From Planctomycetota bacterium (GTDB lineage: Bacteria; Planctomycetota; UBA1135; GCA-002748355): DNA of 64,000 nt. Below the pieces are notes generated by a model, which was not told the DNA's origin, did not search any database, and saw nothing but the letters and a program-made list of their open reading frames with translations. The DNA lies in NCBI GenBank assembly GCA_027021385.1, contig JALUUL010000052.1, positions 19,567 through 83,566 on the forward strand, read 5' to 3'. The translations under genes and the position numbers were made by a program. Positions within the stretch are counted from its first letter, which is position 1. Each line of letters starts with the position of its first letter. Below are positions 32,805 to 59,567 of this stretch, in pieces.

Positions 32805-32843
32805 GCGGGAAGCCGGAGGAAGGGGGAGGTATCCTCCCCGGAA

Positions 32844-38436: not shown

Positions 38437-38556
38437 GGTCCTCCTGGACTCGAACTCTTCCCTCCATCGACCGGGTAACGCAGGACCCTTGACGATCCGC
38501 ACCGTCCCCGATCGAGACGTCTTCTCTCAGGGGGAGGGACGGGCGATGATGCACCC

Positions 38557-45957: not shown

Positions 45958-46515
45958 ATGCGCATCTATACAGGAACCGGCGACGACGGCGAGACCGGGC
46001 TCTTCGACGGGAGCAGGGTCCCGAAGGAATCTGCCAGGGTCGAGGCCTACGGCGCCCTCGACGAACTGAACAGCCTGCTCGGCCTCCTTAGGGCCGAACC
46101 CCTCGCAGAGGAGGTCGACGAGGGACTTCGGGAGATCCAGCGCGACCTCTTCGAAATCGGGGGGGACCTCGCGACCCCGGGGAGCGAAACCTGCCTCGCC
46201 TTCCTGCCGGAGAGGATCCGCGCCCTCGAGGCTTGGATGGACCGCCTGACGGCCTCGCTCCCCAGCCTGCGGAGCTTCGTCCTTCCCGGGGGTTCGCGTT
46301 CGGCGGCCCTCGCCCAGGTCGCCCGGACGGTCTGCCGGCGGGCCGAACGCAGGGCGTGGAGTCTCGCCCGATCCTCGGCCCTGCCGAAGCCCCTCCTCGT
46401 CTACCTGAACCGCCTCTCCGACCTCTGCTTCCTCCTGGCCAGGTCCGAGAACCACAGGGCGGGGATCGCCGAGGCCCCCTGGGAACCCAGGTCCCGCTCC
46501 AAGGACGGGACCTGA
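45958..46515 (+). CDS. PduO-type ATP:cob(I)alamin adenosyltransferase
   Basis: MRIYTGTGDDGETGLFDGSRVPK, EAYGALDELNSLLG, FVLPGGS, RTVCRRAER and YLNRLSDLCF give the canonical PduO/MMAB N-terminal domain pattern. Confidence 0.9.
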   Translation: MRIYTGTGDDGETGLFDGSRVPKESARVEAYGALDELNSLLGLLRAEPLAEEVDEGLREIQRDLFEIGGDLATPGSETCLAFLPERIRALEAWMDRLTASLPSLRSFVLPGGSRSAALAQVARTVCRRAERRAWSLARSSALPKPLLVYLNRLSDLCFLLARSENHRAGIAEAPWEPRSRSKDGT

Positions 46516-46569
46516 ACCCGGCCGGGCCCGCGCAGGTCCCGATCGCCCCCTCGCCCGGACCTTCCCGTC

Positions 46570-47652
46570 TCAGGAGCGGGGCTCGAGTTCGACCCAGACC
46601 TTCGCCTCGGTGCCGTCCTTCTTGCGGAAGGTCAACTCGACGAGGTCGCCGGCCACGTGCCGGCCGATCTGGTCCTGGACGTGCATCGCGTTGCGCGAGG
46701 GCTCCCCGTCGACCTCGAGGAGGAGATCCCCCTTCGACAGGCGCGCGTGGTGGGCGGGCGTCCCGCGCTGCACGCTGAGGATCCTCGCGCCCGGACCGAG
46801 AAAGGAGGGGTCCATCCGGAGCCCGACGAGGCCGCGCCGGAAGACCTTCCCCTCTCTCATCCCCTCGAGGATCGGATCGAGGCCGTCCAGCGGCACGGCG
46901 AATCCGATGCCGGAGTCGTACCAGTCCGCACCCGCCATGTCCCCCTTCGGGGAGAGCGGAACGACGAGGCCGAGCACCCTCCCCTCGATGTCGATCAACG
47001 GCCCCCCGTAATTCGCGGGCGATGTGTAGGCGTCACACTGGATCGCCTTCCCCTGGATCCGATCCAGCGCGGAGAGGATGCCGCAGTGCGCGGTCGGGAC
47101 CCTCGGACCGAAGGAGCGGCCGAGGGCGGCCACCCATTGGCCGACCCTCATTTCGGATCGCGGAACGATCGGGGGCGGCGTGAGATCCCGGGCCCCGATG
47201 CGGAGCAGCGCGATCCCCCTCGTGCGGTCCTCGCCCTTCCGCTCGGCCGTGAACTTCCGGCCGTCGGGAAGGGTCACGATGATCGTGCTCGGGTTCCAGT
47301 TGAGGACGAAGCGGGTCGTCAGGATCCAACCTTCCCGCCCGACGACCAAGCCGGTGCTCGTCCCCTGGGCCTGCAGGAAGCCGGGGATCTTCAGGGGGCC
47401 GAGCCCCTTCTTCGGGGACGGCTTGGGCTTTCGCTTCCCGTCTCCGGATCCGACGGTGCTCCGCCGGGTTCCACCGAAGGTCTCGACCGCCACGACGTAG
47501 GGGGCGGCCTTCCGGACGGCCTCCTCGAGGACCCTGCTCAAGAGGACCGCCTCGGGTTCGCCGCCGCCTCCTTCCGTCTGCGCGGCCGCGGGAGGAAGCC
47601 CCGAGAACAGGAGGGCGGCTGCGCAGAGCCCCATCGCGCGGAAAGCCCTCAT
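46570..47652 (-). CDS. HtrA/DegP-like trypsin-fold + PDZ protein with all three catalytic residues substituted (predicted pseudoprotease)
   Basis: A signal peptide is present. The fold motifs are kept but the His box reads ILTTRFV, the Asp box reads RGIALLRI and the Ser box reads SPANYGGPL. The PDZ is GARILSVQRGTPAHHARLSKGDLLLEVDG. The ATG overlaps the upstream stop (ATGA). Confidence 0.8.
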   Translation of the reverse strand: MRAFRAMGLCAAALLFSGLPPAAAQTEGGGGEPEAVLLSRVLEEAVRKAAPYVVAVETFGGTRRSTVGSGDGKRKPKPSPKKGLGPLKIPGFLQAQGTSTGLVVGREGWILTTRFVLNWNPSTIIVTLPDGRKFTAERKGEDRTRGIALLRIGARDLTPPPIVPRSEMRVGQWVAALGRSFGPRVPTAHCGILSALDRIQGKAIQCDAYTSPANYGGPLIDIEGRVLGLVVPLSPKGDMAGADWYDSGIGFAVPLDGLDPILEGMREGKVFRRGLVGLRMDPSFLGPGARILSVQRGTPAHHARLSKGDLLLEVDGEPSRNAMHVQDQIGRHVAGDLVELTFRKKDGTEAKVWVELEPRS

Positions 47653-50585
47653 CTCCGGTCCTCCGTCAGCTTCATCGAAACCTTCATCACCCTAGCCCCC
47701 CTCTTGAAGGTCACGTCGACGCTCGTCCCGGGAGCATAATGCCGGAGGACCCGCCGGAACTCCGCGCAGGTGCGGACCGGAAAATCATCGATACGAACGA
47801 TCAGGTCGTCGGGTCTGAGGCCCGCCTCCCGGGCCGGGGACCTGGGCAGGACGCGGTCGATGTAGGCGGGCGGCGATCTGCGCCTCCCCGTATCGAAGAG
47901 GACGATCCCGTGGAAGACCTTCCCGTGCGCTTCCCGATCCCGCCTCCCCTCCTCGATCCTACGGGCGAGTTTCTTGTCGCCGAGACACCAGGCGACGAAG
48001 GAGGAGAGGGCGTGGGAGGGGATCGCGAGGAAGAGCTGGGTGTTCGTCTCGCGGGACTCGACGAGCGGCGCAAGAAGACCGAGGAGCCGGCCGTCCTGGG
48101 TAAAGACCCCGCCGCCCTGGGTGCCCGGGTTCGAAGGCGCATCGAGAAGGTAGACCCGCCCCTTGTAGGGGAAGTTCCGCAGGTTCAACCTGAGATCCGA
48201 ACTGACGACCCCGACGACGACGCCCATCGTCACCGACAGGCGCTCCTCGAATTCGGCGAGTTTGTTCGCGTTGCCGATCGAGAACACGAAGGTCCCCGTT
48301 GGAGCGAAGCCCTCCTTCTCCGGGAAGGAGAGCGGTTCGAGCAGCGATTCCTTCCCGCGGGGATCGATCTTCAGCATCGCGACGCCGAGCTCCTCCTGCT
48401 TTCGGACGATCCGCGCCTCATGCACCGAACCGTCGCGGAGCGTGACCTTGATCTGTCCCGGCTGCAGCATGATGTGGTTCCAGGTCAGGATGTGCCCCTC
48501 CTTGCTGCAGACGAGCCCGGTGCCGTAGCCCTCGATCCCGCGCACCCCGCTCGCCCCGTTGATCTTCACGACCGAAGAGAAGAGCGGATCGAGGCGGGCC
48601 TCGACGGAGGCCTTCGGGAGGGGCTTCGGCGCCTCCCGGAAGGCCCGGAAGACGGGCGCGTCGCCCTGCTCGGGAAACTGCAGGATCTCCACGAGCCTCC
48701 CGTCGATCCGCTTCTCCGCGATCTCGGGCCGCATCTCGGCCCCCTTCCTCCTCCAGGACCGGACCTGCCACTCGACGAGACCCCGTTCCGCCGGACTCCG
48801 GTAGCGGCAACCGACCGGAACGAAGGTCTCCTGGTCGAGATACACCGCGCGTTTCCCCGGTCCCCGGAGCGCGAGGACCCAGACGACCCCCTTCCCGATC
48901 CAGGCGCCCCCCTCGAGCCATGAATCCTCGAGGGCCTCGAGGGCCCGGTCCGGCCTCAGGAAGGGAACGAGGTCGCGTTCCCGCTCGAGGCTCGTGCGTT
49001 CGTCCACCTCGTCCGGGTCGAGAGCGGAGAGATCCCGGACCTTCCCTCCCCCCTCGTAGCGGAGGGAATCCCCCTCGAGAAGATACCGGCGCTCCCCGAG
49101 AGGACGCCGGAGCCCCTTGCGCACCCGGAGCACCTCGACCGCGAACCTCCGTCCCTTCGAGGGATCATAAGGAGGAAGGGTTCCCTTCAGCCGGCTCCGG
49201 AGTTCGGCCACGACCCCGTCCATGAAGTCGAACAGCGCGCGTTCGCGGACGAGGTCGCGGGGCGGTTTCTCGTCACTCCCCTTGACCTTGACCTTGCCGC
49301 GCCATTCCTTCGGAATCCGGCGGCGCCAGTCGCGGGGCAGCCCCTTCTCCCACTCCTTCGGAAGTTTGCGGCCCTTCGGCACGAGGAGATCGGCAAGGGT
49401 CAGCTTTTTGGCCTTCTTCCGCGCGGCCCGCGCCTTCTGTTCGGCGAGGAGACGCTCGAAGTCCGGACGCTTCCGGAAATCGGGGACATTGGGCCGGTCG
49501 TTCCGCTTCGAGCCCGTATCCAGGGGAGCCAGCGGGAAGCGCGCGAACCGTACCGGCCCGTAGGAGCGCGTCCGTTCGAGGAAACGGCGGAACCCGAGTT
49601 CGACGATGAAACCCGCGGGCATCGAGCCGACCTGCTTCCCGAGCTGATTCGCGGTGCGGATCGGGTCCCCGTTGAAGGAGACGAGCATGTCGCCGAGACG
49701 GACCCCGTGTTTCGCCGCGATCGAATCCTCGAGGATGCCCTGCACGAAGACCCCCATCCTCCCGCGGCCGAGGTTCGGGTCCTCCATGTACCACGCGTTC
49801 AGGTCCATCGTTCCGTGCTCGGCGTGTTTCCCCGCGAGCAGATCCGGCAGGAAGCGCCGGATCTGGTTGATGCTTACCGCGAAGCCGATTCCGGTATTGA
49901 CCCGCCCTCGATCCCGGATCGTGATCCTCCCGTTGATGCCGACGAGGAGTCCGTTCTCGTCGAAGAGAGGTCCGCCCGAATTCCCCGGGTTCACGGGAGC
50001 GTCCACCTGGATGCAGTCGGGGTAGACCAGCATGCGGCCGTTCGGCCCCGTCCCCTTCTGGAACCTGTGGATGCCCGAGATCACCCCCATCGTCACGGTC
50101 GGTTTGAAATCGGTGGCCAGCAGGAAGGGATTCCCCATCGCGTAGGCGAAACCGCCGAGCCTGAGCTTGTCGCTATCGCCGAGCCGGACGGAAGGCCAGA
50201 GCCCCCCCTCGAGGGGACCCTTCCCCCGGAGCGCGCAGACGGAGATGTCCCCCCCGGGATCGATCCCGACGACATCGGCCAGATAGAACTTCCCGTCCGG
50301 AAGGCCGATCTTCATGACCTTGTTCCTCCCGGTCACGTGGAAGTTCGTCAGGATCCATCCCCTCGGATGGAAGACGACCCCCGATCCGCCGCCGGGGCGA
50401 CTCAGGCTCATGACGGCGCAGACCGCGGGGGAGACCTTCGCGATCAAGGCGGCCCTCTTCTCCTGCAGGAGCTTCAAGCGGGCGAGAGCCCCGTCGCCGC
50501 CTTGTATGGAGCCCGCCGGAAGGGAGGGGCAGAACAGGAGGAGCGGGAGGAGGAATCTCCCCGCCGGTTCGCATCGGCTCAGCAT
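47649..50585 (-). CDS. Tandem HtrA-like protein (979 aa): active trypsin domain-PDZ, long linker, degenerate trypsin domain-PDZ
   Basis: Domain 1 reads ILTNFHV / GGDISVCAL / NPGNSGGPLF (intact H-D-S). Domain 2 reads ILTWNHI / ELGVAMLKI / NPGTQGGGVF (Ser to Gln, Asp to Glu). The two PDZ-like segments are LGDMLVSFNGDPI and LRPDDLIVRIDDFPV. The start at 50585 (MLSRCEPAGRFLLPLLLF) is preferred over the tracked 50939. Confidence 0.85.
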   Translation of the reverse strand: MLSRCEPAGRFLLPLLLFCPSLPAGSIQGGDGALARLKLLQEKRAALIAKVSPAVCAVMSLSRPGGGSGVVFHPRGWILTNFHVTGRNKVMKIGLPDGKFYLADVVGIDPGGDISVCALRGKGPLEGGLWPSVRLGDSDKLRLGGFAYAMGNPFLLATDFKPTVTMGVISGIHRFQKGTGPNGRMLVYPDCIQVDAPVNPGNSGGPLFDENGLLVGINGRITIRDRGRVNTGIGFAVSINQIRRFLPDLLAGKHAEHGTMDLNAWYMEDPNLGRGRMGVFVQGILEDSIAAKHGVRLGDMLVSFNGDPIRTANQLGKQVGSMPAGFIVELGFRRFLERTRSYGPVRFARFPLAPLDTGSKRNDRPNVPDFRKRPDFERLLAEQKARAARKKAKKLTLADLLVPKGRKLPKEWEKGLPRDWRRRIPKEWRGKVKVKGSDEKPPRDLVRERALFDFMDGVVAELRSRLKGTLPPYDPSKGRRFAVEVLRVRKGLRRPLGERRYLLEGDSLRYEGGGKVRDLSALDPDEVDERTSLERERDLVPFLRPDRALEALEDSWLEGGAWIGKGVVWVLALRGPGKRAVYLDQETFVPVGCRYRSPAERGLVEWQVRSWRRKGAEMRPEIAEKRIDGRLVEILQFPEQGDAPVFRAFREAPKPLPKASVEARLDPLFSSVVKINGASGVRGIEGYGTGLVCSKEGHILTWNHIMLQPGQIKVTLRDGSVHEARIVRKQEELGVAMLKIDPRGKESLLEPLSFPEKEGFAPTGTFVFSIGNANKLAEFEERLSVTMGVVVGVVSSDLRLNLRNFPYKGRVYLLDAPSNPGTQGGGVFTQDGRLLGLLAPLVESRETNTQLFLAIPSHALSSFVAWCLGDKKLARRIEEGRRDREAHGKVFHGIVLFDTGRRRSPPAYIDRVLPRSPAREAGLRPDDLIVRIDDFPVRTCAEFRRVLRHYAPGTSVDVTFKRGARVMKVSMKLTEDRR

Positions 50586-50613
50586 CGGAGGTTTCCGGTT
50601 TCGAGGAAGGGTA

Positions 50614-51867
50614 TCAACCTTGGAGGCAGAGACGCGGATCCCCGAGCACGACCTGGGACCCCGCGTCGAGATCCGTTCCGCATTCGAAGACCAGTTCCAG
50701 CGTGCCGATCCCGTCGATCGGGACCTCGAGTTCGACGGGGCCCCGTTCCTGGTCGAGAATCCGGGGGGGAAGGAGGTCCCCGCCGTCCCCGAGCAGGCGG
50801 AAGCGGACCCCGCCGAAGCGGGAAGGAACGAGTCCGAGGGTCGCGCGGAGGACGCCTTTCTTTCCCGCGACCGACACGCGGATCCTGCGCGGGGGGACGA
50901 GCCAGAAGCCGTGCCGGAAGACCCGCCGGCCCAGAGCAAGCGGCGCCCCTCCAGGTCCCCGATCCCGGAAGAGAGGCCAGGTCCTCGTCAGGGCCGCCCC
51001 TCCCTCGGTCTCGAAGCCGGGAAGGTCGCCGAGGAAACGGAGCTTCGGACCGGCCAGCTCCACGTCCCTCGAGAGGTTCACCGGAACCCGGAACTCGAGT
51101 CCTTCCAGACTGCGGAACCTCCAACCCCGCGCCGAATCTCCCTCGAGGAGGCGGCCGCGGAGGATCCTCCCGTCGCTCAGGGTCAGGAGATCGGGGGGGG
51201 AATCCGGATCCGGAACGGCTTCGAGACCGCTGCTCTCCGCGAAGACGAGCCCGTAGATCCGGGCCAGAGGGAGCGACCGCTCCCGCCCTCCGATCTCGAG
51301 GAGGATCTCCGCGCCCTTCCCGCCCAGCACCTTGCAGGGGATCCTCTTGACCCTCGGCTTTCCGCCGTCCGAAGTCTTCGCGTCCCCGCCCTCCGCCAGG
51401 TAGAAGCAGAGATCCTCCTTCAATGGAGGGTCCGCGAGCGCCTTCCGGAAACCCGCGTCCTCGGTCAAGGGGCCCTCGGGCCTGCACAGCAGGCCCTCCA
51501 GGAAACGGAGCGGGACCTCCTGAGCCTTGCCGAGGAGGTCGGGTTCGAAACGGAGGAAGCCCCTGCCGCCCCCGCGGAGGCGGGCCGAGACCTCGAGGCC
51601 GCCCCGGAGCCGGTAGAAGGGCCCCGCGTCCGGGTTCGGGAGGCTCCGGATCCGGGTCCGCCCCCGGAGGACCCAGCAATCCTCCCGGGGAAGGACAGTC
51701 TCGACCCCGAGGGCGAGCCCCTTCAAGCGCCCTTCCCGCAGACTCCACTCGGTGAGAACCCGGGCGCGGCCTTCGAGATCAAGTACCGAGAGCCCGCCTT
51801 CCTGGGCGGAGGCGTCCGTCGCCGGAAGGAACAGCGGAAAGAAGAGGAAGAGAACGGACCCGCGCAT
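50614..51867 (-). CDS. Secreted protein with C-terminal NPCBM/NEW2-like domain (418 aa)
   Basis: The signal peptide is MRGSVLFLFFPLFLPATDASAQ. The C-terminal pattern is FLGDLPGFETEGG...GRRVFRHGFWLVPP...VRFRLLGDGGDLL...GTLELVFECGTDLDAGSQVVLGDPRL. The ATG shares 1 nt with the upstream stop. Confidence 0.6.
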   Translation of the reverse strand: MRGSVLFLFFPLFLPATDASAQEGGLSVLDLEGRARVLTEWSLREGRLKGLALGVETVLPREDCWVLRGRTRIRSLPNPDAGPFYRLRGGLEVSARLRGGGRGFLRFEPDLLGKAQEVPLRFLEGLLCRPEGPLTEDAGFRKALADPPLKEDLCFYLAEGGDAKTSDGGKPRVKRIPCKVLGGKGAEILLEIGGRERSLPLARIYGLVFAESSGLEAVPDPDSPPDLLTLSDGRILRGRLLEGDSARGWRFRSLEGLEFRVPVNLSRDVELAGPKLRFLGDLPGFETEGGAALTRTWPLFRDRGPGGAPLALGRRVFRHGFWLVPPRRIRVSVAGKKGVLRATLGLVPSRFGGVRFRLLGDGGDLLPPRILDQERGPVELEVPIDGIGTLELVFECGTDLDAGSQVVLGDPRLCLQG

Positions 51868-52898
51868 CAACGCCGCGACCGGTTGACCTTCTTGTAATAA
51901 TTCTCGAGAAGGACCCTGTAGCGCTCCGGCAACTTGGCCTGGATCTCGTTCAGGATCTTCTCCCGGTCCCGGTCCTTCATCTCGCCCCATTTGTCCTTGA
52001 CTCCCCGGGAGCCGTGCAACTGCCCGACCCGGCCCTTCCCCGCGCTCAACTGGGAATTGCTGGCCGGACCCTTGGAGGGTCCGTTCCCTCTGGGTGGGCC
52101 GCCTCCCTGCTGCTGCTCCTGCTCCTCGAGCTGCTTGATCAGTTTCGTCAGCTTCTCGACGATCTCGAGCTGCTTGGTCTCGACCTGCTTTCCGGTCTGT
52201 TCCTTCCGGAGTTTCCGCTCGCAGTACTTCATCTCGTCCGCGATCGCGTGCAGCGGACTGTCCCATTGGGCCTCGAGTTCGTCCAGAAGCTGTCGGGCGT
52301 TGGCCCGATAGCGTTCGGGGGCCTCCCCGTAGAGTTCGAGGAATGCTCGGAGGTTCGCGATCGCCCGGGCAGCGTCCGGAATCAAGGAGAACGAATAGCC
52401 GAGGTAGAAGGCGGCCTCCCCGTCGAGCAGGGAACGCCCCCGGTCCTCCCGGATGAACTCCGCGAAGAGGCTCGCCGCCCCTTCCGGGTCGTCCTCGTCG
52501 AGGAGGGCCTTCGCGAGGAAGAAGCGCGCATGCGCGCGGATCCACGGATCCTCCGTCGAGGCCAGGACGCGTGCCAGGAGAAGGACCCCCTTCGGCTCCC
52601 CGTCCTCGACCTTCGCCATCGCCCGCCGGTAGGGCGCATGGAATGCCCGGATCGCCCGGTCCGTGACGCGGGAATCGGGCCCGGCCTTCCAGTCCTCCTC
52701 GAAGACCCGCAGGACCTCTCCGGAGGCCTTCTGTTTCTTCAGCCAGGCCAGGAAGTCCTCCGCGCGGAAACGGGGAGTCTCCTTCGCGACGGCCTTCCCT
52801 TCCTGAGCCCTCGGGGAAGTTCCGGAACCGTCTCCGGCCCCCTGGGCCGGAAGCGGGAGAGCGAAAAGAAGCAGGATCGTGCAGACCGTTCGGATCAT
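51867..52898 (-). CDS. Secreted helical-repeat (TPR-like) protein with charged C-terminal tail (343 aa)
   Basis: The signal peptide is MIRTVCTILLLFALPLPAQG. Helical repeats are visible (HARFFLAKALLDEDDPEGAASLFAEFI, AAFYLGYSF). The tail is Gln/Glu/Lys-rich. The start overlaps the upstream stop (ATGA). Confidence 0.6.
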   Translation of the reverse strand: MIRTVCTILLLFALPLPAQGAGDGSGTSPRAQEGKAVAKETPRFRAEDFLAWLKKQKASGEVLRVFEEDWKAGPDSRVTDRAIRAFHAPYRRAMAKVEDGEPKGVLLLARVLASTEDPWIRAHARFFLAKALLDEDDPEGAASLFAEFIREDRGRSLLDGEAAFYLGYSFSLIPDAARAIANLRAFLELYGEAPERYRANARQLLDELEAQWDSPLHAIADEMKYCERKLRKEQTGKQVETKQLEIVEKLTKLIKQLEEQEQQQGGGPPRGNGPSKGPASNSQLSAGKGRVGQLHGSRGVKDKWGEMKDRDREKILNEIQAKLPERYRVLLENYYKKVNRSRR

Positions 52899-54820
52899 TT
52901 TCCGTCACCTCCGTCCCCGTCGCCCTCCTCCTTCTGGAGCTTGTCGGCGAGCTTTCGGGTCAGGTTCTCGACCTTCCCCTCCTGTTTCGCGGCCCGGTCC
53001 GCGAGGTTCTTGCGGACCTTCGATCCCTTCTTCATGCGATCGAGGATCTTCGTCTTCTTGTTCACGGACTTCTGGAGAGTCCGGAGCATCCGGAGTTCCG
53101 CCGAGAGCGGGACCAGGGATTGGTCCTGGTCGTCGCAATTCGAGTTCTGGTTCTCGTTTTCCTTGTACTCGATCGTCCGGGTCAGGGCGTCGAGGAGATC
53201 TGCGAGCATCCGCTCGATCTCCTTCTGGTATTCCTGGACGGCCTTCCCGGTCTCGTAGCCCTCGACCAGTCTCCCGACCTGTCCCAGCTCCCCGGCGAGT
53301 TCTCCGACGATCTCCGGGAACACGGCGGTCGACCCCTCCTCCTTCAACAGGGCGAGAGCATCCTTGGCCTCGTCGCGAAGCATGAACTCGCCTTCTGCGA
53401 TCTTCGCGCAGGCGGCCTTGACGGAGGAGGGAACGATCCCCTTCTTTGCCAGAGCCTCGGCCCGCCCGCGCCTCTTCTCGGTCAGCGCGGTACGGAGAGT
53501 CAGTTCCTTCTGCCTGGCGAGCATCGCGGAGAATCGCTCCTCGAGGGCCTTGAGGACCTCCTCCTGCAACTCCTGGCGGAGTTGGGCCAGGGCATCCTCA
53601 AGCTTCTTCTTGGCCTCGTCGAGGTCGTCCTCCGCATCCTTCTGATCGTTCTTGGCCTTCCCGGGTTCACGTTTCTTCAGGGACCCCGCGGCGTTCCTCT
53701 GCTTCGGAACCGCCTGCTCGAGGTTCTTCCGCCCGGGGATTGGTTCGCCCTCCGAGCCTTCCCCGCCCTCCGAGGTCTCCGCCTTCTCCATCTCCTCGGC
53801 GAGGTCGTCGGTCTTCTTCATCGTCTCGAGCTGGGCCCTCTCGAACTGTTCGAAGGGGATCTCCCGAAGGCGCCGCCGCGCCACCTCGGCCATCTCCTCG
53901 AGGGCCTCCCGGGCCTTCTTCATCTCGTCCAGGGCGTCCTCCTGGTCGTCGAGGGCGGCCTCCGGGGCGTTCGCCCCGAGCTTGGTCCCCGCGTTGTCCA
54001 TGGATTCCGCGGCCTTCCCCATCGCGGCCCCGGCGGCCCCCGTTCCCTCTCCTGCGGCTCCGGGCTTCCCGGAACCCTCCTCCTCGGAAAGTTCCCGCGC
54101 CTCGGACTCGATCTCGGTCAGTTCGGCCTCGAGATCCTCCGCCCGCCTCCCCAGGTCGCTCTGCCGCTCCGCCAGGTCACGGTTTCCGGGACCCTTCCTC
54201 GGCTGGTTCCTCGTCCGTTCGAGAAGATCCTTCTGCTTCGCGACGAGGTCGTCGATCTTCTTCTTGGCCTTCGCGATGTCCGCGAGATGCTTGCGGATCG
54301 CCTCCGCCTTCACACTGGCCTCTTTCTCGGCGCGTTGCTCGGCGAGGAGGTTCTCGACCTCGTCCTTGAACTTCTCGAGCTTCTCGATCCTCTCCATCAA
54401 CTCCCGGAGATCCACGTCCCGGTCGAGGAGGAGTTGGAGGAGTTCGTCGAGGTTCCTGCGGACCCCGTCCATCGTGCGGATCGCCTCGTCCCAGGCCTTG
54501 TCCTCGAGAAGGGAGGCGACCTCCGCCATCCTCTTCTCGATTCCGGCCTCGGCCATGTACCGCAGACCCGCCTGGATGCGCTTGGCCTTGTCGGGCTCGC
54601 GCTCCGCCATCTCCTCCTTGAGCTGGCGCATCGTGTTCTGGAGCTCCTTGAACTTGGCGAAGGCTTTCCGTTGGAGCGAGGCAGGATCCTGGACGCTCTT
54701 CTCCTGCCACACCCGCGGAGGAGAGGGAATCCGCGGGGAGGTGGCAGCCGTGCCGTCGCAGAGGAACAGGTGCAGCAGGACTCCGAGCGACCCCGCCTTC
54801 CGCAATCCGAGTCTCGACAT
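52895..54820 (-). CDS. Long coiled-coil protein (642 aa) with N-terminal signal/anchor
   Basis: After MSRLGLRKAGSLGVLLHLFLC, nearly the whole sequence has E/K/A/L/R heptad-like composition (KELQNTMRQLKEEMAEREPDKAKR..., KKKIDDLVAKQKDLLERT..., KKLEDALAQLRQELQEEVLKALEE...). The tracked start at 54931 would overlap the upstream gene. Confidence 0.7.
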   Translation of the reverse strand: MSRLGLRKAGSLGVLLHLFLCDGTAATSPRIPSPPRVWQEKSVQDPASLQRKAFAKFKELQNTMRQLKEEMAEREPDKAKRIQAGLRYMAEAGIEKRMAEVASLLEDKAWDEAIRTMDGVRRNLDELLQLLLDRDVDLRELMERIEKLEKFKDEVENLLAEQRAEKEASVKAEAIRKHLADIAKAKKKIDDLVAKQKDLLERTRNQPRKGPGNRDLAERQSDLGRRAEDLEAELTEIESEARELSEEEGSGKPGAAGEGTGAAGAAMGKAAESMDNAGTKLGANAPEAALDDQEDALDEMKKAREALEEMAEVARRRLREIPFEQFERAQLETMKKTDDLAEEMEKAETSEGGEGSEGEPIPGRKNLEQAVPKQRNAAGSLKKREPGKAKNDQKDAEDDLDEAKKKLEDALAQLRQELQEEVLKALEERFSAMLARQKELTLRTALTEKRRGRAEALAKKGIVPSSVKAACAKIAEGEFMLRDEAKDALALLKEEGSTAVFPEIVGELAGELGQVGRLVEGYETGKAVQEYQKEIERMLADLLDALTRTIEYKENENQNSNCDDQDQSLVPLSAELRMLRTLQKSVNKKTKILDRMKKGSKVRKNLADRAAKQEGKVENLTRKLADKLQKEEGDGDGGDGK

Positions 54821-54824
54821 CGTC

Positions 54825-57059
54825 CTAATCCTTGTCTTTCTTCCCGCCCTTGCCGAACAGTTCCTCCATCTCCCGCTCGAGCCGGGCCTTCGCCTCGGCG
54901 GCGGCCTGGTCCTCGAACCGGATGACTTCACGCAAGGTGTTCAAGATCCTCGTGAAGGTCTCCAACTGCGTCATGTGCCGAAGCACGAGCCGCATCAAAC
55001 GAGCGACCTCATCATATCCGCTTTCGGTCTTCCGGCGGTCTTCGGGCCGTTCCGAACGGGAATAGAGCGCCAGGGATTTCGCGAGCGCGGGCATGTGACG
55101 GGAACCCAGGGCCTCGAGGGGAAGGACGATCCGGCTTCGCAGGCGGTTCAGCTTGGACTCCTCGGCGAGGCGGTTGTTCCCCATCTCATCCAGGATCTGC
55201 CGGTAGCGGCGTTCGATCGTCAGCACGGTCCGGGCGAGGTGCCGTTCGTGACGTCCGAGCGCCCGGATCCTTCTGGAGATCGCCTCCTTCTGCGCTCCGG
55301 CGTCTCCGAGATCCCTGAAATCGCGGAAATCCGCCGCATCCTCCTCATGACGTTTGAGCACCTTCGCGAACTCGAGCCGTTGTTCGTTCTGCCTTCGGAG
55401 GAGTTCCTTCAACAGTTCCGAGGGTGTCACGACCTTGAATGTGTAAGCATCGGAACGGGAAACCTGCCCGACTCCACCCCCCTCGAGGGGCTTCCGATCC
55501 CGGGCCTCGAAACGGATCGCCAAGAAGTCGCCGGGAAGAACCGGATTGCCGGGATCGAGCAAGGCCTCCGAATTCTTCATCATCGGAAGGAGATCGAAGA
55601 CGACCTTGCGGTCGAAGGCCGGAAGCCCGGCCTCGAAATCCTCGAGCCCGGCCGCTTTCCCTTCCTCGAACCGGGCCCCGCCGCTCCCGACGGCGGCGCT
55701 CTTCCCCTTCGCCCAATCGAGCCGGATCCCTCCCAACCCGAAATCGTCGGTCACGGTCAATTCGACCGGGATCCTCGCCATCGGTGTGATCCTCGTCCCC
55801 AGCCCCCGGACCCGCGCCCGGAGTTTCGGAGGCCGGTCGTCAACAACCCGAAGGAGCAACTGCCGTCCCGGACCCTCGGTCAGGCCGTCCTCGTCCAACA
55901 TGCGGATCTTGAAGAGTCCGCTCCTGCCGGGCTCGATCCGACCGCGGATCCCCCGGCCGTCCGGGGAGAGTTCCGCCGCGGTCCCCCCGCCGTCGCCGAC
56001 GGCGAGCGCCGCCTTCACGAGCCGCTTCGACGACCGGGCCTCGACTTCGAGCACAGCCCCCCGGGGAAGGGTCAGCTCGGCCGCATCCTCGGACACGCGA
56101 TGAGCATCCTTCGCCATGTAGGCCGGATATCGGAGGAGCAGTTCGAGGGACTCGGGTACGGGCCGGTCGACGAGGACGACGTGGAGGAACGGGGTCTGCC
56201 CGTCCCCCCCCTCCGCGCGGACCCGGACCGGGTCCATCAAGCCCGGGAAAGTATAGGTGAAGACGTCCTCGCCCGTGTTCTGGATCATGGGCTCGGTCGC
56301 GCTCCCCCCGTTCTCGAAAGCGTACTCGAGGAAGACCTGCTCGGGAACGACCCCGCCCGCCCGCACCCGCAGGGTCAGATCGTCCCCCCGAGGGGCGACG
56401 AGCCGCCCCTCCCGGACTCCCAGAAAGGAGAGCCGCGTGAACCTCGGCCATTCGACCGAACTCGAAAGGAGGAGGTTGCGCCGCGCCCAGATCGCAAAGG
56501 TCGAGGGATCGACGGCCCAGCCCGCCGCGAGGACGGCGGAAGCGAGGAGGGCGATCGACCCGGCCCGGCGCACCTTCTCCCTTCTCAAGGCCCTGTCCAT
56601 GTCCGGCGCAGCAAGGGCGGCCGGGAGGGCCGCGACCGCGGCGGCCATCAAGGCGGGGGAATCCCCCCGCGTCTCCCCCGACTCCAGGCGCTTCGCGAAC
56701 TGGATCGCGGAGATGAAGCGCTGGCCGAGCCCCGGGCTCGCGCGCTCGACGGCGAGGGCGAGTTCCTCGTCGACGAGAGAGGACCGGAGAGGGCGCACGA
56801 CGAGGCGGAGGAGGCGGCGGACCGTCCAGGCGGCCCAAAGAGCCAGGAGAACGGCTCGGGCCGGCGTCTCGAGCCGGAGCCATCGGTCGAGCCAGAGGGT
56901 CAGGAGCCAGTAGCCGAGAAAAACGGGCAGTAAGAAACCCGCCCCTTCGAGCAGAACGCCGCGGCGGACCCTCGATCGAAGCACGCCGAGTCTCCCGCGG
57001 AAGGGCGCGAGCACGTCGTCGACCCGGCTGAAACCCTCGGGAAGAACGGTTTGACTCAT
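54825..57059 (-). CDS. Membrane-anchored hypothetical protein (DUF4175-like architecture), ~745 aa
   Basis: An N-terminal pair of TM helices is present (GVLLEGAGFLLPVFLGYWLLTLW, AVLLALWAAWTV). A large beta-rich periplasmic body and a helical C-terminus follow. The start at 57059 (MSQTVLPEGF) avoids overlap with the upstream gene. Confidence 0.65.
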   Translation of the reverse strand: MSQTVLPEGFSRVDDVLAPFRGRLGVLRSRVRRGVLLEGAGFLLPVFLGYWLLTLWLDRWLRLETPARAVLLALWAAWTVRRLLRLVVRPLRSSLVDEELALAVERASPGLGQRFISAIQFAKRLESGETRGDSPALMAAAVAALPAALAAPDMDRALRREKVRRAGSIALLASAVLAAGWAVDPSTFAIWARRNLLLSSSVEWPRFTRLSFLGVREGRLVAPRGDDLTLRVRAGGVVPEQVFLEYAFENGGSATEPMIQNTGEDVFTYTFPGLMDPVRVRAEGGDGQTPFLHVVLVDRPVPESLELLLRYPAYMAKDAHRVSEDAAELTLPRGAVLEVEARSSKRLVKAALAVGDGGGTAAELSPDGRGIRGRIEPGRSGLFKIRMLDEDGLTEGPGRQLLLRVVDDRPPKLRARVRGLGTRITPMARIPVELTVTDDFGLGGIRLDWAKGKSAAVGSGGARFEEGKAAGLEDFEAGLPAFDRKVVFDLLPMMKNSEALLDPGNPVLPGDFLAIRFEARDRKPLEGGGVGQVSRSDAYTFKVVTPSELLKELLRRQNEQRLEFAKVLKRHEEDAADFRDFRDLGDAGAQKEAISRRIRALGRHERHLARTVLTIERRYRQILDEMGNNRLAEESKLNRLRSRIVLPLEALGSRHMPALAKSLALYSRSERPEDRRKTESGYDEVARLMRLVLRHMTQLETFTRILNTLREVIRFEDQAAAEAKARLEREMEELFGKGGKKDKD

Positions 57060-57070
57060 TCCAGACGACC

Positions 57071-59548
57071 TCAAAGGAGATTCCAGCGTTTGCGAAGGAC
57101 CCATTCGATCGTCAGAAAGAAGACGACGAGGGCGAGAAGGACCCAGTTGTCCCAGATCGAGGTCGGAAGGGCGAACACCGCGGTCTGGGACATCGAGGGG
57201 ACCCCCTCCAGAGCCTTCGAGAGTTCCCCGGGCGCGAGGAGGACTCCTCCCGCCGCTTCGGCGAAGCGCCTGAGGGCCGCGCGCGCCATCGGCCCCTTGC
57301 TTTCGAGTTCGGAGCGCATGACCTCGAAACTCGCCGGTGGAGAGGTCCCCTCCCCGGTCAGGACGAAAGCCTTCCAGATCCCGATCGCATTCGGCCGGAA
57401 GCGGCCGACGAACCTCCCCGCCTGCCCCGAAGCCTTCAGTTCGAGGTCTTCGCTATGCCCGTCCGGTCCCTGCATCCTCACCGACACCGTGTCGGCGACG
57501 AGCGGTTCGAGTCGCTCGTCGAGGGCACGGAGATAGACTTCGACCTGCTTGCCGAGCATGACTCTGTCCGCGGAGAGGCCCAATCGGAGCCTCGAGGACC
57601 CCCCGGCCAGACGCCCTTCACAGAGGTAGCGGATGCCCTTCAGCCAATAACTGTCGTACTGGGACTCCGCCACCCCGAACCAGCGGTAGATCTCGTCCGT
57701 CCCCTGGAAGGTCACACGGCCCGCGCCGACGTACTGCGTCACGAGAATCGGTCTCGGACCATCGGAGGTCGTCAGCACGGGGTTGGGGTGCCTGCACAGG
57801 ATCTGCGCGGCCGGTTTCTTCCGGAGGACGGGAAAGGACCAGTAGAAGCCCGGCAGCCCCTTCCACATCGTCTCGTTGAGCATCGTGTCCTCGACGAGCC
57901 TCAGCATCCGGTGCTCCCTTCCCTCGGGAGTCAGGGTCCAGGGCCAGGGAGTCTTGTAGTAGTTCCCGTATCCGAGTTCGTGCTCCGCGGTTGTCAAGTC
58001 GGGAACGATCGGAAGGAGTTCGACGAGGGGAGAGAGGATGGAACCCTCCTTCATCGCGTAGAGGGAGAACTTCTCTCCCGCGATCCACCAAAGCCCCGTC
58101 CCTCTCTTCACGATCGCCTCCGCGAGGTTTCTCGCGAACTCGGGGGGGAGGAGCACCGGGTCGGGATCGATGAGAATCACGACGTCCCAGGCGTCGAGGG
58201 CCTCCGCGGAGGAGGGGAGGGCCTTCAATGTCGTGTTCCCGTCCTGAGGGAAATCCTTCGAGGCGTTCTCGAGCCAGGTCGCGACGTGGACCGTGTCGTC
58301 GCGGATCAGCTGCGTCTTCAAGGTCCGGAACTCGTGACTGGGTCCGCCCGCCACGAGTAGGACCTTGAGCTGAGACCCGATGACCTGGACCTTCTGGGCC
58401 CGGCGGTGCTTCTCCGGATCGAAGGCCTCCCCCTGCGGAGGATCGACCTCGACCACGAGCAGGTGCTCGCCTTCACGATCGAGCTTGACCGGGGGGAAGA
58501 CCGCCTCCACGGAGGGGCGCGATCGACCGACCTCGACCTGGACGCTGGCGAGGACCTTTCCTCCGCCTCCCTTCGGATCGTCCTGCTTCAGGCGCACGGT
58601 CACGCTCTCGTCCTCGTACCCCTGCGCGCTGACGACGGCGGTGACCTTCAGCGGATCCCCCTTGAACACGCGCTCGGCGGCCTGGACGTCCCGGAGTTCG
58701 AGGCTCCAGGTCTCTTCCGGGTCTCCGATCCCCACGACGAGGAGGCGGCCGGCCTTCCTCCGGGCGAGGAAGGCTCCCGCCTCCTCGGGAGCCCCCCCAG
58801 CATTGATCCTTCCGTCGGTCAACACGAGGACCGCGGCGATCCTCGCGTCGCGGGCCTCCTCGAGCGCCTGCCTCAAGGAAGCGGTCAGGTTCGTGCTCCC
58901 CTCCTCCGGCCGGCATCTCGCCCATTCGATCCGAGGCGCGGGGGGGAGGACCCCTGCCTTCCTCTCCCCTTCGATCCCCTCCGCCTCCTTCTCCCCCTTC
59001 TTCTTTCCTTCCCCCCCGGAGAGGGGCATCGCGCGCAACCCGGAGCCGAAGAGATAGGGTCGCACCAGGTTCTTCGCGGCGAGGCGCTCGAGGACCTTTT
59101 CGCGCTCCAGGAGTCGCCCGACCAGATCGAAACGACTCGCGGCCGAGGGTTCCTCGACCCCCAGCGCCTTCCAGGCGGCCGCGAGGTCCTCCGACCGGGC
59201 GTATCGGTCCCTGTGCCCCATCGACTGCGAGGCATCCACGAGGATCAGCACCTGGCCGGGCCGCACGTGCCTCCGAATCCGCACGACCGTCGGTTCGAGC
59301 AGGAGGATGCAGACCAAGGCAAGGGCCGCGAGCCGGAGGATCGCGAGAAAGGCTCTCCTTCCCGGAGAGAGCCGGCTGGCGTCCCTGCGGTAGATCCACA
59401 GGATGCCGAGAACGACCCCGGCGAAGCCCGCCAAGAGAAGGAGGGCCAAGGCCCCCTCGGGCATGGAGGCGAATTCGAAGCGGAGCGTGTCTCCGGGAGG
59501 AAGCTCCTCCGATCCGAAGCCCGCCAGCCATTTGAGGATCTGTTCCAT
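57071..59548 (-). CDS. Membrane protein with VWA-like domain (MIDAS DASQS) and C-terminal TM anchor, 825 aa
   Basis: The N-terminal TM pair is ALALLLLAGFAGVVLGILWIY and AFLAILRLAALALVCILLL. The MIDAS motif is VLILVDASQSMG. The C-terminal helix is NWVLLALVVFFLTIEWVL. Confidence 0.75.
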   Translation of the reverse strand: MEQILKWLAGFGSEELPPGDTLRFEFASMPEGALALLLLAGFAGVVLGILWIYRRDASRLSPGRRAFLAILRLAALALVCILLLEPTVVRIRRHVRPGQVLILVDASQSMGHRDRYARSEDLAAAWKALGVEEPSAASRFDLVGRLLEREKVLERLAAKNLVRPYLFGSGLRAMPLSGGEGKKKGEKEAEGIEGERKAGVLPPAPRIEWARCRPEEGSTNLTASLRQALEEARDARIAAVLVLTDGRINAGGAPEEAGAFLARRKAGRLLVVGIGDPEETWSLELRDVQAAERVFKGDPLKVTAVVSAQGYEDESVTVRLKQDDPKGGGGKVLASVQVEVGRSRPSVEAVFPPVKLDREGEHLLVVEVDPPQGEAFDPEKHRRAQKVQVIGSQLKVLLVAGGPSHEFRTLKTQLIRDDTVHVATWLENASKDFPQDGNTTLKALPSSAEALDAWDVVILIDPDPVLLPPEFARNLAEAIVKRGTGLWWIAGEKFSLYAMKEGSILSPLVELLPIVPDLTTAEHELGYGNYYKTPWPWTLTPEGREHRMLRLVEDTMLNETMWKGLPGFYWSFPVLRKKPAAQILCRHPNPVLTTSDGPRPILVTQYVGAGRVTFQGTDEIYRWFGVAESQYDSYWLKGIRYLCEGRLAGGSSRLRLGLSADRVMLGKQVEVYLRALDERLEPLVADTVSVRMQGPDGHSEDLELKASGQAGRFVGRFRPNAIGIWKAFVLTGEGTSPPASFEVMRSELESKGPMARAALRRFAEAAGGVLLAPGELSKALEGVPSMSQTAVFALPTSIWDNWVLLALVVFFLTIEWVLRKRWNLL

Positions 59549-59567
59549 ATCCGTCCGTGCAGGAAGA

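What the first reader, a model, noticed from the sequence alone, without database searches (positions are those of the whole stretch)
46570..50585. One live and two dead HtrA-type protease domains encoded back-to-back
Reading the catalytic boxes directly:

| Domain | His box | Asp box | Ser box | State |
|---|---|---|---|---|
| 979-aa protein, domain 1 | TNFHV | GDISVCAL | GNSGGP | Intact triad |
| 979-aa protein, domain 2 | TWNHI | ELGVAML (Asp to Glu) | GTQGGG (Ser to Gln) | Degenerate |
| 360-aa protein (ATGA-coupled) | TTRFV (His to Phe) | RGIALL (Asp to Gly) | ANYGGP (Ser to Tyr) | All three replaced |

In the 360-aa protein the surrounding fold motifs and the PDZ domain are conserved.

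Dead HtrA paralogues retained next to a live one suggest substrate-capture, chaperone or regulatory subunits of a hetero-oligomeric cage, not decaying genes.
Basis: seen in the sequence. Interest (0 to 1): 0.55.

Follow-up and report, generated by a model that had tools for sequence, protein, structure and literature searches.

The report
Conserved one-live, two-dead HtrA protease trio
Two overlapping genes encode one working and two catalytically dead HtrA-type envelope proteases, and this trio is kept in the same order across the phylum Planctomycetota, which points to a three-part protease complex with a single active site that does not seem to have been described.

Summary
Gene A (47649-50585, minus strand, 978 aa) carries a live HtrA module (H83/D113/S203) and a dead one. 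Gene B (46570-47652, 360 aa) is a fully dead HtrA and overlaps A by ATGA. One correction: in A's second module the Asp column is Gly734, not Glu.

These are not decaying genes. The dead-B family occurs in at least 596 species-representative genomes. In 57 of 61 loci with enough upstream DNA the order is live D1, dead D2, dead D3, usually as three genes with 4-bp overlaps.

- **D1:** always keeps His-Asp-Ser.
- **D2:** its triad columns drift freely.
- **D3:** has fixed Phe and Tyr (99%) at the His and Ser positions.

D1-D2 fusions, as in this window, sit in three separate places on a D3 tree. Three proteins fuse all three modules in one chain.

Between D1 and D2, gene A carries a domain predicted to have a LolA/RseB-like fold. 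The trio closes a conserved Bat-like operon.

Best reading: an asymmetric hetero-oligomeric periplasmic HtrA, probably a 1:1:1 trimer. This is inferred, not shown. I rate it a new variant of a known kind; DEG7/Nma111 and MamO are the closest precedents.

The parts
47649..50585 (-). Gene A, 978 aa. A fusion of the live module D1 and the dead module D2, which are separate genes in most relatives.
   Evidence: ORF and translation. Same gene call on the public contig. Pfam Trypsin_2 x2 and PDZ x2. AF2 model pLDDT 81.4, pTM 0.77.
50496..50585 (-). N-terminal hydrophobic signal or anchor of A (aa 1-30, ...FLLPLLLFCPSLPAG...).
   Evidence: Read from the sequence. Disordered in the model, pLDDT about 30. 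The signal-peptide call is an inference; no predictor was run.
49836..50423 (-). D1 protease domain (aa ~55-250) with an intact triad: H83 (50337-50339), D113 (50247-50249), S203 (49977-49979).
   Evidence: Alignment to DegP. Codons checked. HDS in all 18 full-length orthologues and in 63 of 65 D1 genes, the other two being cut short. The triad columns are among the most conserved.
49533..49817 (-). D1 PDZ domain (aa ~257-351).
   Evidence: Pfam PDZ second stretch. Aligned to DegP PDZ1. Secondary structure in the model.
49266..49508 (-). Lys/Arg-rich linker (aa ~360-440). A helix is modelled at 376-392; the rest is low confidence.
   Evidence: pLDDT 45-52 for aa 391-440 and low conservation of 0.28-0.38 over aa 391-480.
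48666..49253 (-). LolA/RseB-like domain (aa ~445-640) between the two protease modules. It corresponds to the C-terminal tail of stand-alone D1 proteins.
   Evidence: No Pfam or PDB sequence match. AF2 of aa 440-660: pLDDT 94.9, pTM 0.88. The top 29 Foldseek PDB hits are all LolA-superfamily proteins (LolA, LolB, RseB, MucB, DUF1329); best E 7.9e-6, TM 0.45. Tails of distant D1 proteins link to it by hhalign, probability 94.5%.
47985..48608 (-). D2 pseudoprotease domain (aa ~660-867). H704 (48474-48476) is retained; the Asp column is G734 (48384-48386); the Ser column is Q823 (48117-48119).
   Evidence: Alignment to DegQ. Codons checked. No D2 has a full triad, and these columns rank 172-232 of 302 in conservation.
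47670..47906 (-). D2 PDZ domain (aa ~894-972).
   Evidence: Pfam PDZ_2 906-973. Alignment to DegQ PDZ1.
46570..47652 (-). Gene B, 360 aa, = D3. A dead HtrA with its own signal peptide (aa 1-24, ...AAALLFSGLPPAAAQ).
   Evidence: ORF. Pfam Trypsin_2 plus PDZ. 1343 proteins match at E<=1e-10 (this count may include ordinary HtrAs). At least 596 species-representative genomes hold it. The signal peptide is read from the sequence.
46843..47370 (-). D3 pseudoprotease domain (aa ~95-270): F115 (47308-47310), G146 (47215-47217), Y215 (47008-47010) at the His, Asp and Ser columns.
   Evidence: Alignment to DegP. Codons checked. Tyr 99% and Phe 90% conserved; the Asp column varies (G, M, K).
46582..46836 (-). 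D3 PDZ domain (aa ~273-357) with an R-G-x-L-G carboxylate-binding loop.
   Evidence: Pfam PDZ_2 285-347. Alignment to DegP PDZ1. R273 and G277 are nearly invariant or invariant.
47649..47652 (-). ATGA overlap between the stop of A and the start of B (translational coupling).
   Evidence: Sequence. The same 4-bp overlap occurs at 45 of 72 D2-D3 junctions in related loci.
50614..61814 (-). Upstream same-strand genes that travel with the trio: BatA-N-terminal protein (59568-61814), weak-VWA protein (57071-59548), 759-aa protein (54825-57104), DUF4175-like protein (52895-54931), 343-aa protein (51867-52898), NPCBM-like protein (50614-51867).
   Evidence: Pfam and NCBIfam. The DUF4175-like, 343-aa and NPCBM-like genes lie directly upstream of D1, in that order, in most related loci. 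An eight-gene string with 4-bp overlaps is seen in L085.

Best explanation
Genes A and B encode the three subunit types of one asymmetric periplasmic HtrA complex. The most likely form is a 1:1:1 heterotrimer built on the usual HtrA trimer plan, with a single active site.

- **D1** is the only catalytic protomer. In this lineage it also carries a LolA/RseB-like domain, which could hold hydrophobic clients or ligands such as lipoprotein acyl chains, lipids or unfolded envelope proteins.
- **D2** is a structural protomer whose former active site is no longer under selection.
- **D3** is a pseudoprotease with a re-fixed Phe/Tyr pocket and an intact DegS/DegP-type PDZ peptide-binding loop. It probably acts as a sensor or allosteric partner that gates D1 through the inter-subunit loop contacts known in HtrA trimers.

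In this genome D1 and D2 are fused into one chain. B is made by translational coupling. The trio is the last part of a conserved Bat-like envelope operon and probably works with it.

**Shown:** the domain identities, the triad states, their conservation, the gene order, the coupling, the fusions and the predicted fold.

**Inferred:** physical assembly, stoichiometry, sensing, ligand binding and the link to the Bat-like proteins.
For: - **Triad states:** read from HMMER alignments to solved HtrAs.
- **Spread:** the D3 family is in at least 596 species-representative genomes, and the 80 inspected are all Planctomycetota or unclassified.
- **Gene order:** D1, D2, D3 in 57 of 61 loci with enough upstream DNA.
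- **Coupling:** 4-bp overlaps at 45 of 72 D2-D3 junctions and 26 of 63 D1-D2 junctions, plus 11 one-base overlaps (gene calls).
- **Age:** the three modules are only 24-29% identical to each other, so they are old, separately maintained paralogues.
- **Different selection per module:** D1's triad is invariant; D2's triad columns rank 172-232 of 302; D3 has Tyr at 99% and Phe at 90%.
- **D1-D2 fusions:** they fall in three separate places on a D3 tree and are common in the protein searches (43+16+2 of 240 proteins; 96 of 99).
- **Triple fusions:** three single-chain D1-D2-D3 proteins, 37-43% identical to each other; the two whose contigs were looked up come from different samples.
- **Export:** stand-alone D2 and D3 have their own signal peptides, so all three are exported.
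- **Model:** the AF2 model of A has pTM 0.77, which suggests the domains pack in a defined way.
- **Middle domain:** a LolA-superfamily fold is predicted.
- **Operon:** the upstream Bat-like genes are conserved with the trio.
Against: - No direct evidence of physical association. Multimer modelling was not available and model coordinates could not be inspected.
- Characterised bacterial HtrAs are homo-oligomers.
- Three loci have D3 with no D1 or D2 within 7 kb (L066, L069, L072), and one lacks D1 (L075).
- The LolA-like domain is missing from a Phycisphaerae group of D1-D2 fusions with 40-84 aa linkers, so it is not essential to the trio.
- The fold match is moderate (TM about 0.45), with no sequence-family support.
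- The junction analysis picked the start codon nearest the upstream stop, which biases towards short gaps.
- The three triple fusions are known from single short contigs.
Confidence: 0.55

Rival explanations
1. The genes encode three independent homo-oligomeric proteins that are merely co-expressed. D1 is an ordinary quality-control protease. D2 and D3 are stand-alone protease-dead holdase chaperones, like DegP S210A, which keeps chaperone activity.
For: Known HtrAs assemble as homotrimers, and DegP has protease-independent chaperone function (established knowledge). Each module keeps its own PDZ. In split form each has its own signal peptide. A few loci carry D3 without D1 or D2 nearby.
Against: Independent proteins would not be expected to keep strict order and 4-bp coupling across a phylum. 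Nor would they be fused repeatedly, including all three in one chain. D2's relaxed pocket and D3's re-fixed Phe/Tyr pocket show two different specialisations, not two copies of one chaperone.
Confidence: 0.25
2. D3, and perhaps D2, is still an enzyme that uses non-canonical residues. Candidates in D3 are the invariant Tyr215 or the conserved Ser211, His189 and Asp207. On this reading the modules are not really dead.
For: D3 has nearly invariant Y215, S211, D207 and H189, and keeps the N-x-G-G oxyanion-loop motif.
Against: The His column is Phe in 90% of D3s and the Asp column varies (G, M, K), so no acid-base partner sits at the canonical positions. D2's three columns drift freely. D207 belongs to the general HtrA 'QTDA' motif, which live HtrAs also have. 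No model of B was made, so the geometry is untested.
Confidence: 0.07
3. D2 and D3 are negative regulators. They co-assemble with or bind D1 only to hold it inactive or dilute its active sites, and they have no client-binding or sensing role.
For: A design with one active site in three cuts proteolytic capacity. Pseudoenzymes often act as dominant-negative partners (general knowledge). The operon and fusion data fit as well as they fit the main explanation.
Against: D3's PDZ keeps a canonical peptide-binding loop, and its pocket residues are under strong selection. That is more than a passive plug would need. This rival overlaps the main explanation and differs only in the sign of regulation.
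Confidence: 0.1
4. The dead modules are decaying duplicates, that is strain-specific lesions or pseudogenes.
For: None beyond the loss of catalytic residues. Two loci (L056, L083) have D2 split into two ORFs.
Against: Intact ORFs, 50-72% identical orthologues and phylum-wide retention with conserved non-catalytic motifs.
Confidence: 0.01

Closest known systems
DEG7 (plants) / Nma111p-Ynm3p (fungi): tandem HtrA with one active and one degenerate protease domain
   Same: One chain holds an N-terminal live HtrA module and a C-terminal module that lacks the triad but keeps the fold. In DEG7 the degenerate domain has become the oligomerisation element (PMC3194040). Gene A has the same live-then-dead layout.
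   Different: DEG7 arose by internal duplication of a two-PDZ gene, has up to four PDZ domains, and was reported only from fungi, plants and algae. Here the modules are 24-29% identical ancient paralogues, are separate genes in most relatives, and have one PDZ each. There is also a third, separately encoded dead module and a LolA-like insert. This is an analogue, not an orthologue.
MamO / MamE of magnetotactic bacteria: a dead HtrA that promotes a live HtrA paralogue
   Same: A catalytically dead HtrA-family protein is encoded in the same gene cluster as a live paralogue and is needed for that paralogue's proteolysis. Pseudoproteases were retained independently in several clades (PMC4794232).
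   Different: MamO carries a transporter domain and a di-His metal site, and it serves biomineralisation. It promotes MamE through that transporter domain, not its protease domain. No such domain is present here. The MamO NCBIfam model scores far below its cut-off (30.9 and 14.1 bits against 800). Here two different dead paralogues accompany one live one in a fixed order.
DegS with RseB (E. coli), AlgW with MucB (Pseudomonas)
   Same: An HtrA trimer has PDZ domains that sense C-terminal peptides. It works with a LolA-fold periplasmic protein that senses lipid or LPS signals (established knowledge). RseB and MucB are among the structural matches of the middle domain. D3's PDZ keeps the R-G-x-L-G loop.
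   Different: In E. coli the LolA-fold protein is a separate protein that binds the substrate RseA, and DegS is a homotrimer with three active sites. Here the LolA-like domain is covalently joined to the protease and two of the three protomer types are dead. No anti-sigma or sigma-E genes were seen next to the trio. The DegS NCBIfam models score below their cut-offs.
Deg5-Deg8 hetero-oligomer of the chloroplast thylakoid lumen
   Same: It is a precedent for HtrA paralogues working together in one compartment (PMC3640471 abstract). That they form a mixed complex is from my own knowledge.
   Different: As far as I know, both Deg5 and Deg8 keep the catalytic triad, and they are not encoded in an operon. 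This comparison rests on memory and the paper's abstract only; it was not tested here.

Membership tests
HtrA/DegP family (MEROPS S1C; Pfam Trypsin_2 + PDZ) | Chymotrypsin-fold protease domain of the Trypsin_2 type | tested here: met
   All three modules match. Pfam: A has 2 stretches, E 2.8e-46; B has E 4.9e-22. PDB phmmer to DegP and DegQ gives E 1e-21 to 1e-41. The top Foldseek hits for the model of A are DegP, DegQ and DegS.
HtrA/DegP family (MEROPS S1C; Pfam Trypsin_2 + PDZ) | At least one C-terminal PDZ domain after the protease domain | tested here: met
   One PDZ follows each protease module.
HtrA/DegP family (MEROPS S1C; Pfam Trypsin_2 + PDZ) | His-Asp-Ser catalytic triad | tested here: not met
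   Met only by D1 (H83/D113/S203). D2 has H704/G734/Q823 and D3 has F115/G146/Y215. D2 and D3 are therefore non-peptidase homologues.
HtrA/DegP family (MEROPS S1C; Pfam Trypsin_2 + PDZ) | Score above the curated cut-off of a named NCBIfam HtrA family (DegP, DegQ, DegS, HhoA, MamE and others) | tested here: not met
   The best model is TIGR02037. A scores 303 bits and B 126 bits against a cut-off of 416. All equivalog models are also below cut-off.
HtrA/DegP family (MEROPS S1C; Pfam Trypsin_2 + PDZ) | Trimer as the basic assembly unit | not testable with these tools
   Only single-chain prediction was available, and coordinates and PAE were not returned.
DEG7 / Nma111p tandem HtrA | Two protease domains in one chain, the first active and the second degenerate | tested here: met
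   Gene A.
DEG7 / Nma111p tandem HtrA | Origin by internal duplication of a two-PDZ gene, giving up to four PDZ domains | tested here: not met
   One PDZ per half. The halves are 24% identical and are separate adjacent genes in most relatives.
DEG7 / Nma111p tandem HtrA | Trimerisation through the degenerate domain | not testable with these tools
   Needs biochemistry or multimer modelling.
MamO-type HtrA pseudoprotease | Degenerate active site in an HtrA fold, encoded beside a live paralogue | tested here: met
MamO-type HtrA pseudoprotease | C-terminal transporter domain and sequence membership in the MamO family | tested here: not met
   No such Pfam domain. NF040961 MamO scores 30.9 bits (A) and 14.1 bits (B) against a cut-off of 800.
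LolA / LolB / RseB superfamily (for A aa 445-640) | LolA-type fold (open beta-barrel with helices) | tested here: met
   The AF2 model has pLDDT 94.9. The top 29 Foldseek PDB hits are all LolA-superfamily proteins; probability up to 1.00, best E 7.9e-6, but TM only 0.45. This compares a predicted structure and is not an experimental result.
LolA / LolB / RseB superfamily (for A aa 445-640) | Match to a sequence family (Pfam LolA, LolB, MucB_RseB, DUF1329) | tested here: not met
   No Pfam hit even at E<=10 and no relevant PDB sequence hit. phmmer against 1.84 billion representative proteins finds only 3 relatives.
LolA / LolB / RseB superfamily (for A aa 445-640) | Hydrophobic cavity that binds acyl chains or lipid | not testable with these tools
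Needs binding assays.

The most novel reading that the evidence does not exclude
Planctomycetota use an obligate, asymmetric HtrA heterotrimer. It has one catalytic protomer that often carries a LolA/RseB-like ligand-binding domain, one purely structural pseudoprotease, and one pseudoprotease with a re-engineered Phe/Tyr pocket and a peptide-sensing PDZ. This complex is the dedicated proteolytic arm of the phylum's conserved Bat-like envelope operon. If so, it would be the first bacterial HtrA whose trimer is built from three different gene products with a single active site.
Probability: 0.4. Interest if true: 0.75.

Novelty: new variant of a known kind. Interest (0 to 1): 0.6.

Why it matters
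HtrA proteases are the textbook ATP-independent quality-control and stress-signalling proteases of the bacterial envelope. They are understood as symmetric homotrimers whose protomers activate each other.

A natural, phylum-wide version would be a ready-made system for two questions:
- how much of HtrA allostery needs catalytic neighbours;
- how pseudoenzymes are recruited as scaffolds and sensors.

In this version the three positions are filled by three different paralogues, only one is catalytic, and each dead one is under a different kind of selection.

It also gives the first functional handle on two other things. One is part of the large, unexplained HtrA/PDZ expansion in Planctomycetes (about 11 HtrA-family proteins per genome in PMC6411480). 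The other is the Bat-like operon, whose function is still unclear in any phylum.

In practice these genes are annotated as 'trypsin-like peptidase' or 'serine protease Do'. For two of the three modules that is wrong.

Tried and rejected
1. **Strain-specific lesions or pseudogenes.** Rejected. The substitutions are family-wide.
Rejected. The aligned column is Gly, and the nearby Glu is not conserved.
3. **Sequence identification of the 310-aa middle region.** Pfam at E<=10 found nothing. PDB phmmer gave only a weak coiled-coil hit to the basic linker. phmmer against 1.84 billion representatives gave only 3 relatives. Only structure prediction plus Foldseek gave an answer.
4. **Foldseek with the full-length model.** It returned only HtrA chains and nothing for the whole architecture.
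5. **Literature.** Searches for a description of this trio or of an HtrA-LolA fusion found nothing relevant. The library covers only open-access papers, so absence is not proof.
6. **Recent duplication of D1 as the origin of D2 and D3.** Rejected. The modules are only 24-29% identical to each other.
7. **Promoter and terminator scan of 46300-50800.** No promoter-like site, and terminator-like sites no more frequent than in shuffles. This fits co-transcription but does not show it.
8. **Source names for the two window proteins.** The collection holds none.
9. **dN/dS.** Not attempted. The nearest orthologues are 60-72% identical at the protein level, so synonymous sites are probably saturated.

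Full report
**1. What is in the window.**

Two minus-strand genes fill the reported interval. Gene A runs 47649-50585 (978 aa) and gene B runs 46570-47652 (360 aa). B's ATG overlaps A's stop as ATGA. The stop-to-stop frame of A continues upstream to a TTG at 50939. The public gene call on the same 186-kb metagenomic contig starts at the ATG at 50585, 28 bp after the preceding gene.

Pfam finds Trypsin_2 twice and PDZ twice in A, and Trypsin_2 plus PDZ in B. No curated NCBIfam HtrA model reaches its cut-off for either protein.

**2. The catalytic columns.**

I read these from HMMER alignments to solved HtrA chains and checked the nine codons directly.

| Module | His column | Asp column | Ser column |
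|---|---|---|---|
| A module 1 (D1) | H83 | D113 | S203 |
| A module 2 (D2) | H704 kept | G734 | Q823 |
| B (D3) | F115 | G146 | Y215 |

In D2 the Asp column is Gly.

**3. These are family traits, not lesions.**

- B has 1343 matches at E<=1e-10 (this count may include ordinary HtrAs). Among the best 120, down to 43% identity, the three columns read F (119 of 120), G (115 of 120) and Y (120 of 120).
- Eighteen full-length orthologues of A (34-62% identity) all keep H-D-S in module 1. None has a full triad in module 2.
The 80 loci returned span Pirellulaceae, Planctomycetaceae, Gemmataceae, Thermoguttaceae, Phycisphaerae and Brocadiaceae, including Kuenenia.

**4. A conserved three-gene module.**

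I built profiles for D1, the middle region, D2 and D3 and scanned six-frame ORFs of all loci. The order D1, D2, D3 on one strand appears in 57 of 61 loci that have at least 5.5 kb upstream of D3.

In most of these, D1 (about 550-600 aa) and D2 (about 350 aa) are separate genes. Gene calls in L001, L003 and L085 show 4-bp overlaps between neighbours. Across loci the nearest in-frame start gives a 4-bp overlap at 45 of 72 D2-D3 junctions and 26 of 63 D1-D2 junctions. That method favours short gaps, so the numbers are somewhat generous.

Stand-alone D2 and D3 each begin with their own signal peptide.

The three modules are only 24-29% identical to each other. They are therefore ancient paralogues, not recent copies.

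**5. Three kinds of selection.**

Across the species-representative loci:
- **D1** is H-D-S in 63 of 65 genes; the other two are truncated. These columns are among its most conserved.
- **D2** shows 27 different residue combinations among its 70 complete sequences, such as SEA, QGY and GQP, and never H-D-S. Its three columns rank 172-232 of 302 in conservation, while flanking motifs stay conserved. The old active site is simply unconstrained.
- **D3** has Tyr at the Ser column in 83 of 84 matches, and the exception is a separate canonical HtrA gene in L058. It has Phe at the His column in 76 of 84. Its Asp column varies (G, M, K). D3 has therefore fixed a new aromatic pair where the nucleophile and base used to be.

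D3 also keeps the N-x-G-G loop and an R-G-x-L-G PDZ carboxylate-binding loop that aligns with DegP PDZ1.

**6. Fusions.**

The window's A is a D1-D2 fusion. On a neighbour-joining tree of D3, fused loci fall in three separate places among split ones: the window clade with L004 and L005, then L046, then L063. Fused forms are common in the protein searches.

Three proteins carry D1, D2 and D3 in a single chain with the expected live, dead, dead pattern: P0207 (1071 aa), P0159 (1227 aa) and P0258 (1203 aa). They are 37-43% identical to each other. The contigs of P0207 and P0159 come from different samples; P0258's contig was not looked up.

By the usual gene-fusion argument this favours a physical complex with equal stoichiometry. 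The caveat is that each triple fusion is known from one short contig.

**7. The middle domain.**

Residues about 345-655 of A match no Pfam family and no solved structure by sequence.
- The full-length AF2 model (pLDDT 81.4, pTM 0.77) shows a Lys/Arg-rich, mostly low-confidence linker at about 360-440, followed by a well-folded domain at about 445-640.
- Modelled alone, that domain reaches pLDDT 94.9.
- Its top 29 Foldseek hits in the PDB are all LolA-superfamily proteins: a LolA-superfamily protein NE2245, Porphyromonas LolA3, LolB and LolA, DUF1329, RseB and MucB. The best E is 7.9e-6 and TM about 0.45.

Stand-alone D1 proteins all carry a tail of about 150-580 aa after the PDZ, typically 220-300 aa. 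Tails from distant clades link to this domain by profile-profile alignment, with probability 94.5%.

A Phycisphaerae group of D1-D2 fusions has only 40-84 aa between the modules and so lacks the domain. It is common but not universal.

**8. Wider context.**

Upstream of A on the same strand, with small gaps or overlaps, lie:
- an NPCBM-like protein (50614-51867);
- a 343-aa protein (51867-52898);
- a DUF4175-like protein (52895-54931);
- a 759-aa protein (54825-57104);
- a weak-VWA protein (57071-59548);
- a BatA-N-terminal double-transmembrane protein (59568-61814).

The first three sit in the same order directly upstream of D1 in most related loci, including distant clades. L085 shows an eight-gene string with the same sizes, several of the junctions being 4-bp overlaps. 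The trio is therefore the distal part of a conserved Bat-like envelope operon. The function of Bat proteins is unsettled in the papers I found.

The rest of the window is ordinary chromosome: MetH, carbamoyl-phosphate synthase, and a Ser/Thr kinase fused to an FGE-sulfatase domain.

**9. Most likely mechanism.**

*Shown:* one live and two differently dead HtrA modules, all exported, co-ordered, translationally coupled and repeatedly fused.

*Inferred:* they form one asymmetric HtrA oligomer, most simply a 1:1:1 heterotrimer. HtrA trimers are held together by their protease domains, and activation passes from one protomer's sensor loop to the next protomer's active-site loops (established for DegS, DegP and HtrA2). 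In such a ring:
- D2 would serve as scaffold;
- D3 would serve as a PDZ-driven sensor or gate for the single D1 active site;
- D1's LolA-like domain would hold hydrophobic clients or ligands.

I put about 0.55 on the hetero-oligomer and much less on the individual roles.

The rivals are set out with their tests in the Rival explanations section. They are co-expressed independent homo-oligomers or chaperones (about 0.25), purely inhibitory partners (about 0.1), a cryptic non-canonical enzyme (about 0.07), and decay (refuted).

**10. Comparison and novelty.**

The closest precedents are DEG7/Nma111p and MamO.
- DEG7/Nma111p is a live-plus-degenerate tandem whose degenerate domain drives trimerisation. 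It was reported only from fungi, plants and algae (PMC3194040).
- MamO is a dead HtrA that promotes MamE proteolysis (PMC4794232).

The window's system works like these in principle but is not a member of either family. It has a different origin, a different PDZ count and different extra domains, and its scores fall below family cut-offs.

The DegS-RseB pair is a functional echo, because a LolA-fold partner is involved.

I found no paper describing this trio, an HtrA-LolA fusion, or inactive HtrAs in Planctomycetes. One survey notes only that Planctomycetes have about 11 HtrA-family proteins per genome (PMC6411480).

Verdict: a real, conserved feature and a new variant of a known kind, with interest of about 0.6.

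Noticed in passing
window 50614-61814 (-); L004-L083 upstream of D1; L085 1-7089: The HtrA trio is the last part of a larger conserved same-strand gene string: BatA-N-terminal protein, weak-VWA protein, an unannotated ~760-aa protein, a DUF4175-like protein, a ~345-aa protein and an NPCBM-like protein. Many neighbours overlap by 1-4 bp. The last three are found directly upstream of D1 in most related loci, including distant clades.
   Followed up: partly
P0207, P0159, P0258 (loci L087 424-3639, L086 915-4598): Three single-chain D1-D2-D3 triple fusions with the live, dead, dead pattern. P0207 has almost no linker between D1 and D2. P0258 appears to end without a D3 PDZ. Each is known from one short Logan contig.
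   Followed up: partly
proteins P0242-P0311 (Phycisphaerae), about 640-770 aa: A large Phycisphaerae group has D1-D2 fusions with only 40-84 aa between the modules. They lack the LolA-like domain that other D1 proteins carry.
   Followed up: partly
window 49266-49508 (-), A aa ~360-440: A strongly basic, mostly low-confidence linker with repeated PKEW/RDW-like motifs lies between the D1 PDZ and the LolA-like domain. It is poorly conserved even among close orthologues, and stand-alone D1 proteins of L001 and L003 lack it.
   Followed up: no
L036-L083 (Pirellulaceae, Planctomycetaceae), D3 ORFs of about 650-700 aa: In these clades the D3 reading frame is nearly twice as long as B. It gives a second weak PDZ-like match and has an unassigned C-terminal region.
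   Followed up: no
L056 5698-6737; L083 5485-6823: D2 is split into two adjacent ORFs in these two loci. This could be a frameshift, an assembly error or a real pseudogene. D1 and D3 are intact.
   Followed up: no
L066, L069, L072 (D3 at ~7001); L075: D3 has no D1 or D2 within 7 kb upstream in three loci, and in L075 D2-D3 has no D1. I do not know whether the partners are elsewhere in those genomes.
   Followed up: no
L058 8061-9503 (-): A canonical HtrA with an intact H-D-S triad is encoded on the opposite strand immediately downstream of D3.
   Followed up: no
L001 16915-17703: A stand-alone LolA gene (PF03548) lies about 6 kb downstream of the trio in this locus. It is probably a coincidence.
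   Followed up: no
window 8404-11799, 27456-30065, 30138-32039, 32187-35129, 37090-38502: Several large ORFs with coding-type GC3 (470-1131 aa) have no Pfam match at E<=1e-4.
   Followed up: no
window 3191-6799 (-); also L001 1-944: A Ser/Thr protein kinase is fused to an FGE-sulfatase domain (1202 aa). The same kind of protein occurs near the trio in L001.
   Followed up: no
window 61827-63257 (-) and 62909-63994 (-): A protein with squalene-cyclase/prenyltransferase-like repeats and a PQQ/BamB-like beta-propeller ORF overlap in different frames just upstream of the BatA-like gene. The gene boundaries here are unresolved.
   Followed up: no
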